From NCBI RefSeq assembly GCF_009914755.1, contig NC_060935.1: DNA of 64,000 bases; one strand, written 5' to 3'. The notes under the pieces were generated by a model. It had not been told where the DNA came from. It saw only the letters and a list, made by a program, of their open reading frames with translations, and ran no database searches. Positions 2,500-5,800 of the stretch are shown one piece after another (position 1 is the stretch's first letter; each line of letters starts with the position of its first letter). Origin of the DNA: the human T2T-CHM13v2.0 reference genome, Homo sapiens. Position numbers and translations under genes: made by a program.

Positions 2500-5400
2500 T
2501 GGTAAGTTAGTTTTTACTTAGAATATCTTTTTCTGTATAAATACACATAGATAACATAAATGTACAAAATGTGAATGTACAGATCAACAAATGATCACAA
2601 AGTGAACACCATATAATTATCACTGAAAGTTAAAAATATTGTTGGCACCCCTCCCAACTGCTGCCTTGACTTCTAACACCCTAGGCCAGTGTCTCCTATT
2701 TTGACTTTATGTAAATGGAATCATACAGGGCATCTTTTTTAAATATGTTTTCTTTTGTTCAACATTGTGAGGTTCAGCCATTTATCGATGTTGCAGTGAT
2801 TTGTTCATTTTCACTGTTGTATTGGGTTCATTTAGTAAATACATTATAATAATTTATTTAACCATTTTACTTTTTCTGAACATTTGGATTATATCTAGGG
2901 CTTGTCTATGGTAAATAATTAAGACTTCGTTTGTGTTTATGTTCATAACTGAGATCTCTTTGTCAGGTTTTGGTGCCAATGTTTAGGGCTCTCATAAAGG
3001 ATTTAGGAAGGCGAATTTGTGTAAGACAAGTATCACTTCTTAAACATTTAATGGAGTTCATTAGTGAAGCCTTCTAGAGCTGGCATTTTCTTTTTGAAAA
3101 AGTGTGTGAGTGTGGATTCAATTATTGAAAGATTAAAGTACTATTCAGATTTTGTTTCTTTTAAAGTTAGCTTTGAGAAAATATATTTTTCTGGAAATTT
3201 TCCCATTTCATCTAAATTTTCAAATATATTGCCTTTAAAATATTCGTTTTTGATGTCTAGATCATTGGTAGTAACGTTCCCCTTGTCATTTGTTACAGGA
3301 TATCGATGCACTCTTTTTTCTTGATAATTCTCACCAGAACACTATCAATTTTATTAATTGTTCAAAGTACAGTGTTTGGCTATGACTCTTACTGTGTTAA
3401 GTATTTATTTTCTGATTCTGTCATTATCTTTATTATTTTGTTTATTCAATTTCTTAGTTTAGGATTAATTTGCTTTATTTTTATAATGTCTTGACATAGA
3501 TACTTAGATAATGGACTTTCAGTCTTTGTTCTTTTTAATTATATGAATTTAGGTTATTAATCATCATTTACGCATGGATTTGGTTGCATCCTCTAAGTTT
3601 TAAAAAGATTTTTTGAGGTAAAATTACATAACATAAAATTAGTTCTGTTAAAGTGAACGATTAAGTAGTCTTTCATGCCTTCACAATGCTATGCAGCCTC
3701 TATCTCCAGTTCCAGCACATTTTCATTATCCTATAAACATTGGGCAATTACTTCTCCATTTTCCCCTTCTCCCACCGCCTGGCAACAGCAATCTTTTTAT
3801 TATCTTTATGGATTTGCCTATATTGGAAATGACTCCCATACCTTTTTTTTTTTTACACGTAGAATAAGAATAAATTTAATGTATTTATTTTCATGACTGA
3901 AGAATTACATTCTTCAAAGCAAGAATTCAGAATGTACATAATTATAAGCCATATTTCATATCAGTGCATTATTTTTATATTATACTTTCTATTATATGGG
4001 TAATGGTTCATATTGAAATACAGAAAAAATAAGTTGTAAGACAAGCGATGTCTATATAGGAAGAGATGAATCATTTTAGTGTCTTATTAGTTGGATAATT
4101 GCTGCTTTAAGGTTGCCATGTTAGCCTAACAGTTTAATCATAACTATAAATTCTATCTAAAAAATAATAAAGGTTTCATAACAAACAGCTGATACTAAAG
4201 GTGAGCACTTCACCTGTAGGTGCTTCTCTGAAGGTGTCAAGTAGACTTCGGTATGTGCATTTTAGAATGTCTTAAAGATGATTTTGTAAGGAGCTGGCAG
4301 GCAAATTAAGCCCAACAAAAGAGAAGGTCTGCAAATTATCCTGCAGGTTAGGGCCAATCTTCTTGAGTCTGCTAGGAATTATAAAATACCTACTCTTGCT
4401 CTTTCACCTCTAAGTTTTAAGTTGGAATTTTACTTTTCCTTCATACGGCTGTGTGGATTGTTGAAGGTCACATGCTTCACAAGCACTTGCCCATAATGAC
4501 AACTTCCATGTTTTGGGGGACATTGAGAAGCTTCCCTGGGTCCAGAACTTTGCTATAGTAGGGCTGTGCTTTCTTCTCATATTAAGGCAAATAGTGTAGA
4601 CCGAAGGCGCCATTTGGCAGGTAGTATTCAACCTGAGGCACTGGATGTCCTGGAGGCAGTGTCCAGAAAGCTGCAGGCCACTCTGGGGGCCATGTTGTTG
4701 CCGGGGGGAAACTTGATGATCTTTACCAATCAGTTTATACTTTTTGTGGATTCTTGGTACTGTTTAAGTTCCTTTCTTTTCAAGTTGAAGGACTTCCTTT
4801 AGCACTTCTTGTAAAGCAGGTCTAGTGGCGATGAACTCCCTCAGTTTTTGTCTGGAAGTCTTTATCTCTTATTCATTTTTGAAAGACAGTTTTGCTGGAT
4901 GTAGTATTCTTGGTTGCCAGTTGATTTTTCTTTTAGCATTTTAAATATATCGGTCCATTCCACGCTAGCCTGCAAGGTTTCTGCTGAAAAATCTGCTGAT
5001 AGTCTTATACCCTACAAGTTTCTATCAATTTTATCATCATCATCAAAGAATTCAAATATTTTCCAACTTCCTTTGTCATTACTTGTTAGATTTATGGTTT
5101 ATTTAGAAGTGCTTTTCTTAATTTCCAAGAATTTGGATATTTTAGGGTTATCTTTTTTATCAGTTTCTTTCTTAAATGCATTATAGTCTGAGAAGTTTAT
5201 GTGAAGACTAGTTTAATACAGGATCAAGCTTGTAAATATTCTGAGGTATACTTGAAAGAATATGTGTATACTGTAGATGTTAGATCAATGTTCTATTATG
5301 TCAATTAGTTCAATTTTGTTAATCATCTTCTTTTAAATGTTTTATGTCTTTATTGATTGTTATTTGCTTTGCCTATTGACTATTGAAAGGTTGTATAAAA

Positions 5401-5800
5401 ATTTCCCGCTATGGTTGTAAATTTATTTATTTCTCTTCTGTCAATTTCGCTGATATGTTTTGAATCTCTGCTTTTATCTTTCTTATGTATGTTGTATATA
5501 CATTTTTGGTAAATTAAGAATTTTACCATCATGAAATGTCCCTCTTTATCTCTAATAATGCTTCTTGCCTTAAAGTATTATTTTTCTGAATATTAACAGA
5601 GCTATAGCAACTTCCTTTTGGTTAGGGTTTACATATCGTTATCCATTGTTTTTCTTTTATTTTTCCAATGCCTTATGTTTTTGATGCTTCTCTTATATGT
5701 AGCATATAACTACTTTATTTGAAATCAAGACCAGCAACCTTTGCCCTTTAATTTGAAGCATTTCAGAGACTCCAATTTTATGTGCTAGACTGTTTTGTTA
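2500..5800 (-). mobile_element. Old L1 (L1M-type) fragments, antisense, hosting the ATP4B retrocopy
   Basis: AT-rich sequence with recognisable antisense L1 ORF2 and 3'-end phrases; boundaries approximate. Confidence 0.7.
3843..4720 (-). pseudogene. ATP4B: 5'-truncated processed pseudogene of ATP4B (gastric H+/K+-ATPase beta subunit): exons 5-7, 3'UTR and poly(A)
   Basis: Minus strand, across frameshifts: [20 protein letters not shown] / [27 protein letters not shown] / [13 protein letters not shown] / HVTFNNPH / [11 protein letters not shown], matching the recalled ATP4B C-terminus; no introns; ATTAAA (3880-3875) and AATAAA (3889-3884); T12 at 3843-3854. Confidence 0.9.

What the first reader, a model, noticed from the sequence alone, without database searches (positions are those of the whole stretch)
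3843..4720. Hidden ATP4B (gastric proton-pump beta subunit) retrocopy in a GLB1L3 intron
Seen: the minus strand, read across frameshifts and stops, gives [79 protein letters not shown]. The orthologous TGA is at 4406-4404, followed by ~550 nt of UTR-like sequence, AATAAA/ATTAAA and A12. Knowledge (recalled): ATP4B ends [85 protein letters not shown]. Inference: an old processed pseudogene that the ORF track misses. Heritable retrocopies need germline or early-embryo RNA, which is unexpected for a gene chiefly expressed in parietal cells.
Basis: partly seen in the sequence, partly recalled or inferred. Interest (0 to 1): 0.8.

Follow-up and report, generated by a model that had tools for sequence, protein, structure and literature searches.

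The report
ATP4B pseudogene fused to L1 by splicing
This is an old, dead, already-annotated copy of the last three exons of the stomach proton-pump beta-subunit gene, and its front end shows it was copied from an RNA in which a LINE-1 element had been spliced onto exon 5.

Summary
Window 4720-3843 (minus strand) is an intron-less, disabled copy of ATP4B exons 5-7, the 549-nt 3'UTR and an A12 tail. The only related locus in this genome is ATP4B on contig 13. It is not hidden: RefSeq already lists it as LOC100421417.

Three points are new here.
1. ATP4B homology starts exactly at the first base of exon 5. It does not reach 4908 as the RefSeq span implies; 4723-4908 is L1 ORF1 sequence.
2. The L1 ORF1 fragment (5009-4721) ends exactly where 13 of 16 related L1 copies continue with GT. 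The commonest form is AAG|GTAAAT, a near-consensus splice donor. A donor-to-acceptor join is the mark of a spliced L1-to-ATP4B chimeric RNA, so I read the locus as a retrocopy of that RNA (about 0.8).
3. A 241-nt L1 3' end follows A12 directly. The whole 1.4-kb block sits in an older L1 ORF2 and is flanked by one 7-14-nt target-site duplication. This fits either a single template-switch event or a nested insertion, and I cannot tell which.

The copy is old (K2P 0.37-0.48 to the parent) and shows no sign of function. The germline-expression puzzle is weak, because the source RNA was L1-associated. Interest is low to moderate.

The parts
5010..5661 (-). Left arm of an older host L1 (ORF2 5' part) into which the block was inserted
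   Evidence: Aligns to ORF2 regions of long L1 reference copies: 5661-5057 to L055 and 5589-5016 to L054, at 57-59% identity. A genome search found L1 copies only.
5007..5021 (-). Left copy of the target-site duplication (AAACTTGTAGGGTAT). Its last 3 nt are ambiguous with the start of the L1 ORF1 fragment.
   Evidence: The left flank ends, and the right flank starts, at the same AAAACTT.. segment in L054. In all 3 references the right flank starts at that segment. Sequence read.
4721..5009 (-). L1 ORF1 C-terminal / ORF1-end fragment, sense to ATP4B, ending at an L1 splice-donor position
   Evidence: Pfam Tnp_22_dsRBD hits in two frames, E 3e-5 and 5.8e-5. 19 of 19 genomic L1 copies align from 5010-5003, and 16 of 19 alignments end at 4719-4724. 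13 of 16 alignable copies have GT right after the break.
4664..4720 (-). ATP4B exon 5 (57 nt), beginning at the first exon base
   Evidence: 80% identity to the parent exon, whose genomic context is ..TTCTAG|ATCGTC.. ..TTCCTG|GTGAGT.
4564..4663 (-). ATP4B exon 6 (parent 102 nt, here 100 nt; 2-nt deletion near 4647/4646; TAA at 4584-4582)
   Evidence: Joined to exon 5 and exon 7 without intron sequence.
4404..4563 (-). ATP4B exon 7 coding part. Two 1-nt deletions (near 4487 and 4449) and TAG at 4412-4410; the original TGA is kept at 4406-4404.
   Evidence: Codon-wise alignment to the parent.
3855..4403 (-). ATP4B 3'UTR, with the ATTAAA signal at 3880-3875
   Evidence: Aligns to the parent 3'UTR up to the cleavage site. 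66.1% identity over 501 aligned positions, K2P 0.476.
3843..3854 (-). A12 tract at the ATP4B poly(A) site
   Evidence: The parent genome also has AAAAAAAGAAA at this point, so part of the tract could be templated.
3602..3842 (-). 5'-truncated L1 3' end (ORF2 tail / 3'UTR / A-T-rich terminus), same strand, starting directly after A12
   Evidence: Genome search. 9 of 14 fetched L1 copies align from 3867-3821, 5 only from 3779-3688, and all 14 run on to 3613-3576. Four copies read GTATGAT[GT]C[CT]A[CT]T in their flank just 5' of the aligned part, matching window 3841-3828.
3588..3601 (-). Right copy of the target-site duplication (AAAACTTAGAGGAT)
   Evidence: The right flank aligns with at most one gap from the reference segment AAAACTTATG.GATGC in L054 and L056, and with several gaps in L055, so it starts there in 3 of 3 references.
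3041..3601 (-). Right arm of the host L1 (ORF2 continues)
   Evidence: 3497-3041 aligns to L056 and 3247-3061 to L054, downstream of the left-arm positions. The 3601.. continuation is.

Best explanation
Window 5009-3843 (minus strand) is one L1-mediated retrocopy of a spliced chimeric RNA. A sense-strand L1 exon ended at a cryptic 5' splice site at the end of ORF1 (family form AAG|GTAAAT). It was spliced to the normal acceptor of ATP4B exon 5. The RNA then ran through exons 6 and 7 and the 3'UTR to the ATP4B poly(A) site.

Reverse transcription stopped, or the cDNA was joined, inside L1 ORF1, so only 289 nt of L1 remain. The copy landed in the ORF2 of an older L1 in what is now a GLB1L3 intron, antisense to GLB1L3. 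It has since decayed as neutral DNA: two stops, one 2-nt deletion and two 1-nt deletions.

Shown:
- the identity of the parent
- the loss of two introns
- the 3'UTR and A tract
- both junction positions
- the outer target-site duplication

Inferred:
- that the junction was made by splicing
- that the L1 lay in cis, for instance in intron 4 of the ancestral gene, either driving the transcript from its own promoter or exonised within ATP4B pre-mRNA
- that the adjoining 241-nt L1 3' end entered in the same event by reverse-transcriptase template switching (about even odds against a nested insertion)
For: 1. Parent. The only DNA relatives in the genome are three exon pieces of one contig-13 locus. 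Its last exon is gastric H+/K+-ATPase beta at E 1.6e-27. Window frames hit only that protein in PDB, 6 of 6 sequences each.

2. Processed. Exons 5, 6 and 7 are joined base-for-base where the parent has GT..AG introns of about 1.2 and 0.9 kb. The UTR aligns to the cleavage site, followed by A12.

3. ATP4B side of the junction. Homology begins at the first base of exon 5 (parent ..TTCTAG|ATCGTC). Exon 4 does not match the upstream 186 nt: local score 9.0, against a shuffle mean of 9.4, and 189 of 300 shuffles reach it. L1 copies score 91-98 on the same stretch.

4. L1 side of the junction. 16 of 19 L1 copies stop aligning at 4719-4724. Right after the break, 13 of 16 alignable copies read GT and 11 of 16 read GTAA[AG]. 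AAG|GTAAAT matches 8 of 9 positions of MAG|GTRAGT (textbook consensus, recalled), and one copy has 9 of 9. Such sites occur at 27 of 86,731 positions in the L1-bearing loci.

5. Both parts lie on the same strand.

6. A 7-14-nt duplication of host L1 sequence flanks the block.

7. The kind is known in mirror polarity. Law et al. (PMC13174262, passages read) report 17 gene-exon/L1 chimeric insertions, six of which end precisely at splice donors.
Against: - No sense-oriented L1 ORF1 sequence is present today in the 14-kb human ATP4B locus. Only an antisense L1 ORF2 piece upstream of exon 1 and about 300-bp repeats in intron 6 were found. The supposed source L1 is therefore not seen, and trans-splicing or later loss must be invoked.
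- The G at 4721 could come from either partner, so the junction is defined only to +/-1 nt.
- The coincidence argument is post hoc.
- L1 subfamilies were not assigned, because no Dfam or RepeatMasker was available. The donor is inferred from present-day copies, not from a curated consensus.
- No orthologous loci could be examined.
Confidence: 0.8

Rival explanations
1. Ordinary 5'-truncated ATP4B retrocopy whose 5' end abuts unrelated L1 ORF1 DNA by chance. Either it was inserted next to or into an L1 fragment, or the reverse transcriptase jumped from ATP4B mRNA to an L1 RNA at an arbitrary point. No splicing was involved.
For: 5' truncation and template jumps are both common in L1-mediated insertion (general knowledge; template switching is described in PMC13174262). 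No source L1 is seen in the modern parent locus.
Against: It needs two independent coincidences. The ATP4B break must fall on the first base of an exon: my arithmetic gives about 6 junctions x 2 positions in about 1,400 nt. The L1 break must fall directly before a near-consensus GT donor: 27 of 86,731 positions for >=8/9 matches, or 4,152 of 86,731 for any GT. As target DNA, an L1 piece that has ORF1 but stops at the ORF1 end with no 3' part is also atypical.
Confidence: 0.15
2. Formation of the block, version A (nested). A 241-nt 5'-truncated L1 3' end inserted first into the host L1, making the outer duplication. The L1-ATP4B retrocopy later inserted at the very 5' edge of that fragment with its own short duplication.
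For: GGTAT occurs in exact duplication register at both ends of the retrocopy: 5011-5007 just before the L1 ORF1 part, and 3842-3838 just after A12. The G at 3842 differs from the T or C seen before GTATG in L1 3' copies.
Against: Five bases is a very short duplication, and each half is also explained otherwise. Host GG plus ORF1 TAT is seen in 7 of 19 L1 copies whose alignment begins at 5009 or 5010. GTATG is also the L1 3'-end sequence. The implied cleavage site is a poor match to the TTTT/AA preference (recalled). A second hit within about 5 nt of the first element's edge is unlikely a priori.
Confidence: 0.45
3. Formation of the block, version B (single event). Target-primed reverse transcription began on an L1 RNA and copied its last 241 nt. 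It then switched to the A tail of the L1-ATP4B chimeric RNA and copied 1,167 nt, giving one insertion with one duplication.
For: One 7-14-nt duplication flanks the whole block. It begins with AAAA preceded by TATC in the L1 references, which gives TTTT|GATA on the other strand, close to the L1 endonuclease preference (the preference is recalled). A12 abuts the first L1 3'-end base, and the left duplication copy abuts the first L1 ORF1 base. All parts are on the same strand. Bi- and tripartite template-switch chimeras with a 5'-truncated L1 as the 3' part are a described kind (PMC13174262 passages; PMC2104539 title and abstract only).
Against: The GGTAT 5-mer noted under version A. The star-tree branch lengths differ (L1 ORF1 part about 0.15, L1 3' part about 0.23), but on 289 and 241 nt with biased copy sets this is not decisive.
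Confidence: 0.55
4. The RefSeq span is right: ATP4B-derived sequence extends to 4908, which would cover roughly residues 125-291.
For: The hub's annotation gives the LOC100421417 span as 4407..4908.
Against: 4908-4722 shows no similarity to exon 4 or to any of the 10.2 kb upstream of exon 5 in the parent. Scores are 9.0 and 14.5, both below the shuffle means of 9.4 and 16.5. The same stretch aligns at about 75% to 19 of 19 L1 copies and hits the L1 ORF1 dsRBD Pfam model.
Confidence: 0.03
5. It derives from an ATP1B (Na+/K+-ATPase beta) paralog, or from a DNA-level duplication of ATP4B.
For: None found. ATP1B-family intron-less copies do exist elsewhere in the genome.
Against: PDB hits are only gastric H+/K+ beta. 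DNA homology, including 501 aligned UTR positions, is only to the contig-13 locus. The introns are absent and homology stops at the poly(A) site.
Confidence: 0.01

Closest known systems
RefSeq pseudogene LOC100421417 (ATPase H+/K+ transporting subunit beta pseudogene); L1-mediated processed pseudogenes in general
   Same: Same locus and same parent. It is intron-less, has a poly(A) signal and an A tract, carries a disabled frame, and was inserted by the L1 machinery with a target-site duplication.
   Different: The annotated span (4407..4908) leaves out the 549-nt 3'UTR and the tail. It also includes 186 nt that are L1 ORF1 sequence. The copy is not of the normal mRNA but of an L1-exon-5 fusion RNA.
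Spliced mRNA/LINE-1 chimeric insertions (Law et al., Cell Genomics 2026, PMC13174262; passages read)
   Same: Gene exons and L1 sequence are fused in the same orientation exactly at splice sites and then retrotransposed. Cis- or trans-splicing is proposed as the cause.
   Different: There, 5' gene exons (donor) are joined to L1 (acceptor or 5' end), and the L1 supplies the 3' end and coding capacity. Here, L1 is the donor and the gene supplies the acceptor, the 3' exons and the poly(A) site. This case is also much older. ATP4B and GLB1L3 do not occur in the 4 supplementary files held.
Template-switch chimeric retrogenes (U6/L1 and related; a tripartite case in PMC2104539, title and abstract only)
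   Same: Copies of different RNAs lie head-to-tail on one strand, with a 5'-truncated L1 3' end as the 3' part and one duplication around the whole.
   Different: The 5' partner here is itself a spliced L1-mRNA fusion that carries its own A tract. A single event is not proven.
L1 sense-strand splice sites and spliced L1 copies (Belancio et al. 2006, seen only as a citation in PMC2176070, paper not held; SpIREs, Larson et al. 2018, seen only as cited in PMC13174262)
   Same: GT donors inside L1 sense RNA are used by the spliceosome and can join L1 to downstream exons.
   Different: Those sites are described for young human or mouse L1s. This donor lies at the ORF1 end of an old L1 family, and I could not check whether it has been described.

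Membership tests
Processed pseudogene of ATP4B | Specific homology to the ATP4B mRNA rather than to paralogs | tested here: met
   only gastric H+/K+ beta in PDB; only the contig-13 locus; parent exon 7 at E 1.6e-27 to H+/K+ beta, against 3e-4 to Na+/K+ beta.
Processed pseudogene of ATP4B | Introns absent at exact exon-exon joins | tested here: met
   Exons 5/6 and 6/7 are joined; the parent has GT..AG introns there.
Processed pseudogene of ATP4B | 3'UTR up to the poly(A) site, followed by an A tract | tested here: met
   The alignment runs to the cleavage site. ATTAAA is kept and A12 follows. Caveat: the parent genome has an 11-nt A-rich run at the same point.
Processed pseudogene of ATP4B | Target-site duplication | tested here: met
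   A 7-14-nt duplication of host L1 sequence lies at 5021-5007 and 3601-3588, but it encloses the extra L1 3' end as well.
Processed pseudogene of ATP4B | Loss of coding capacity | tested here: met
   Two in-frame stops, one 2-nt deletion and two 1-nt deletions; only residues 186-291 are represented.
Retrocopy of a spliced L1-gene chimeric transcript | The gene part starts at an exon's first base (acceptor side) | tested here: met
Retrocopy of a spliced L1-gene chimeric transcript | The L1 part ends directly before a GT donor in the L1 family | tested here: met
   13 of 16 alignable copies have GT, and 11 of 16 have GTAA[AG]. 3 of the 19 copies did not align across the point.
Retrocopy of a spliced L1-gene chimeric transcript | A source L1 in sense orientation upstream of the acceptor in the parent gene | tested here: not met
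   None is found in the modern human 14-kb locus. The ancestral state cannot be tested here. In Law et al., 15 of 17 gene loci likewise lacked an intronic L1 (bioRxiv version).
Template-switch chimeric retrogene | One duplication around all parts, and none around the parts singly | tested here: inconclusive
   The outer duplication is present. A 5-nt GGTAT match at the inner borders can be read as a second duplication or as chance.
Template-switch chimeric retrogene | The 3' part is a 5'-truncated L1 ending in its own A-rich tail, on the same strand as the 5' part | tested here: met

The most novel reading that the evidence does not exclude
The locus is a fossil of L1-driven exon capture. A sense L1 sat in an intron of ancestral ATP4B and was transcribed in the germline from its own promoter. 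It skipped its own poly(A) signal and spliced from a donor at the ORF1 end into exon 5. The resulting RNA, with ORF1 kept and ORF2 replaced by ATP4B exons 5-7, was mobilised in trans in a single template-switch event that also copied the helper L1's 3' end. That would explain how exons of a parietal-cell gene reached the germline genome. It would also be an ancient natural example of exon shuffling by L1 read-through plus splicing.
Probability: 0.3. Interest if true: 0.45.

Novelty: new member of a known kind. Interest (0 to 1): 0.3.

Why it matters

The analysis does three things:
- It corrects the boundaries. The true ATP4B-derived stretch is 4720-3843, not 4407-4908.
- It gives a base-level explanation of the odd exon-5 start: a donor-to-acceptor join with L1.
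- It removes most of the supposed paradox about germline expression of a stomach-specific gene.

It is one more case for catalogues of L1-RNA recombination, and an unusually old and reverse-polarity one. It also hints that donors at the ORF1 end of old L1 families were used by the spliceosome.

Tried and rejected
- Pfam on the five ATP4B-bearing frames gave 0 families. The family HMM PF00287 run over the genome gave 39 matches, none on contig 11. The copy is too broken for profile detection, so this is no evidence against it.
- Exon 4 homology upstream of 4721, as the RefSeq span implies, was tested and rejected.
- Homology beyond the poly(A) site: an 8-mer, TATGGGAG, is shared by the parent's downstream flank and window 3840-3833. 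No alignment was found there by blastn at word size 7 and E<=1, so I treat it as chance.
- A splice acceptor at the 5' end of the L1 ORF1 fragment: in 19 of 19 L1 copies the ORF1 sequence simply continues upstream, and no shared AG is present. I read 5009 as a truncation or joining point.
- A source L1 in the modern ATP4B locus was not found.
- Papers: 'LOC100421417' gave 0 papers. 'ATP4BP1', 'ATP4B pseudogene' and 'ATP4B retrocopy' gave 0. 'ATP4B' with 'processed pseudogene' gave 1 unrelated paper. Belancio et al. 2006 could not be read because it is not held.
- Dating by branch lengths is rough. The copy sets are the best hits to the window and so are biased.
Full report
**Observation.** A DNA search of the window's own genome with 3843-4730 found only the window itself and three pieces of a single locus on contig 13.

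**Identity of the parent.** I fetched 14 kb of the contig-13 locus and aligned it to the window.
- Window 4722-4663, 4635-4564 and 4566-3844 match three separate exons. These exons are bounded in the parent by ..TTCTAG| and |GTGAGT, ..CCCCAG| and |GTAGGT, and ..CTTCAG|.
- The family HMM PF00287 marks six other exon-sized matches in the same locus.
- The translated last exon matches the C-terminus of pig gastric H+/K+-ATPase beta at E 1.6e-27. The best Na+/K+-ATPase beta match is 3e-4.
- Two window frames searched against PDB hit only gastric beta chains, 6 of 6 distinct sequences each, even at a cut-off of E 10.

The parent is ATP4B, and the ATP1B alternative is excluded.

**Processed copy.**
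- A global alignment to the parent's exons 5+6+7 (joined in a script) gives 71.6% identity over 317 coding positions (K2P 0.371) and 66.1% over 501 UTR positions (K2P 0.476).
- Both exon-exon joins are exact.
- The copy represents residues 186-291 only.
- It is disabled by a 2-nt deletion near 4647/4646, TAA at 4584-4582, 1-nt deletions near 4487 and 4449, and TAG at 4412-4410. The original TGA is kept.
- The alignment ends at the parent's cleavage site.
- One caveat: the parent genome itself reads AAAAAAAGAAA at that point, so the A12 tract may be partly templated.

**Not hidden, but mis-bounded.** The hub's table shows RefSeq LOC100421417, an ATP4B pseudogene, at 4407..4908. That span omits the UTR and tail. 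It also extends 186 nt upstream of where I find ATP4B homology.
- I tested the extension. Window 4908-4722 against exon 4 scores 9.0; the shuffle mean is 9.4 and 189 of 300 shuffles reach the observed score. Against all 10.2 kb upstream of exon 5 it scores 14.5; the shuffle mean is 16.5.
- The same stretch scores 91-98 against L1 copies.
- It hits the Pfam L1 ORF1 dsRBD model in two frames.
- It aligns at 72-78% to 19 of 19 fetched L1 copies.

**The junction.**
- On the ATP4B side, homology begins at the first base of exon 5 (4720). The G at 4721 is shared by both partners.
- On the L1 side, 16 of 19 copies stop aligning at 4719-4724. The other three stop earlier, at 4770, 4758 and 4734.
- I read each copy from the base aligned to 4727. 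Of the 16 alignable copies, 13 have GT directly after the break and 11 have GTAA[AG]. Typical forms are GGTAAAG|GTAAAT and GGTAAAA|GTAAAT, and one copy has AAG|GTAAGT.
- AAG|GTAAAT matches 8 of 9 positions of the textbook donor MAG|GTRAGT (recalled).
- In the L1-bearing loci held, such sites occur at 27 of 86,731 positions, and any GT at 4,152 of 86,731.
- About 6 internal exon starts in about 1,400 nt of mRNA gives roughly 1% for the ATP4B side (my arithmetic).

The chance of both coincidences together is very small, although the argument is post hoc. A donor-to-acceptor join on one strand is what splicing produces. I therefore read 5009-3843 as the retrocopy of an RNA in which an L1 exon was spliced to ATP4B exon 5.

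The L1 part starts at 5009/5008 within ORF1. L1 copies simply continue upstream there, with no shared AG, so this end is a 5' truncation or joining point.

**Where the L1 was.** The modern human ATP4B locus holds no sense L1 ORF1 sequence. I found only an antisense L1 ORF2 piece about 2.7 kb upstream of exon 1 and about 300-bp repeats in intron 6. The source L1 is thus inferred, not seen. It may have been lost since, or the join may have been made in trans. Law et al. discuss the trans option for their mirror-image cases, in which 15 of 17 gene loci lack an intronic L1 (bioRxiv version; journal version PMC13174262). Whether the L1 promoter drove the RNA, or the L1 was exonised inside an ATP4B pre-mRNA, cannot be told, because the copy is truncated within the L1 exon.

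**Surroundings.**
- Directly after A12 comes a 241-nt L1 3' end on the same strand (3842-3602). Its first bases, GTATGGGAGTCATTT, correspond to the GTATGATTCCATTT-type motif (GTATGAT[GT]C[CT]A[CT]T) read in four L1 copies just 5' of their aligned part. Its end..CCTCAAAAAATCTTTTTAAAA, corresponds to L1 termini.
- Outside the block, 5661-5010 and 3601-3041 are the two halves of an older, more diverged L1 ORF2 (57-62% identity to the same references).
- In 3 of 3 long L1 references the right flank begins at the reference's AAAACTTATG.GATGC, and it runs with at most one gap in L054 and L056. In L054 this is the very segment on which the left flank ends.
- The host sequence AAAACTT(..)GGAT is therefore present twice, at 5021-5007 and 3601-3588. 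This is a 7-14-nt target-site duplication around the whole 1.4-kb block.

**One event or two.**
- A single event would be reverse transcription starting on an L1 RNA and then switching to the A tail of the chimeric RNA. It explains the single duplication, the direct abutments and the good endonuclease-type site.
- A nested history would be the L1 3' end first, with the retrocopy later landing at its 5' edge. It is suggested by a GGTAT 5-mer in duplication register at 5011-5007 and 3842-3838. Each half of that 5-mer also has its own explanation.
- I put this at about 55:45 for the single event.

**Age.**
- The K2P distance to the modern parent is 0.37-0.48.
- A star-tree estimate gives about 0.15 substitutions per site on the window's L1 ORF1 branch and about 0.23 on its L1 3'-end branch. 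The copy sets are biased and the sequences short.
- With a recalled human-lineage neutral rate of about 2e-9 per site per year, this suggests several tens of millions to roughly 100 million years. It is an inference, not a measurement.

**Function.** Nothing points to one. The frame is broken, the copy lies antisense in a GLB1L3 intron, and it has drifted from 49% to 37.5% G+C relative to the parent segment.

**Prior art.**
- No paper in the searched library names LOC100421417.
- None names an ATP4B pseudogene or retrocopy.
- ATP4B and GLB1L3 are absent from the four held supplements of Law et al..
- Supplements I could not see, and papers not held (Belancio et al. 2006), may bear on whether this donor or this locus has been described.

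**Verdict.** This is a real, old, already-annotated ATP4B processed pseudogene. Its added interest is the splice-type L1-exon 5 junction and the composite, duplication-flanked architecture.

Noticed in passing
G000 contig 2: 60740722-60741520 (minus strand), outside the window: An intron-less Na+/K+-ATPase beta-family copy covers HMM positions 2-284 in two adjoining frames with no stop codons (E 7e-59 and 3e-18). It is either a well-preserved retrocopy or a retrogene of an ATP1B paralog. Further broken intron-less copies lie on contigs 4, 14 and 5.
   Followed up: no
window 2950-5661: The whole stretch is made of old L1 pieces (host ORF2, an ORF1 fragment and a 3' end). None of it appears in the hub's list of NCBI-masked repeats, so the soft mask misses old L1s here.
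   Followed up: partly
L005/L006 (contig 13, ATP4B poly(A) site) and window 3854-3833: The parent genome carries an 11-nt A-rich run exactly at the cleavage site. An 8-mer, TATGGGAG, lies 13 nt further on in the parent and 2 nt after A12 in the window. No alignment supports homology there, so it is probably chance.
   Followed up: partly
L006/L005, about 2.7-3.8 kb upstream of ATP4B exon 1: An antisense L1 ORF2 fragment of about 1 kb lies upstream of the parent gene, and intron 6 holds repeats of about 300 bp.
   Followed up: no
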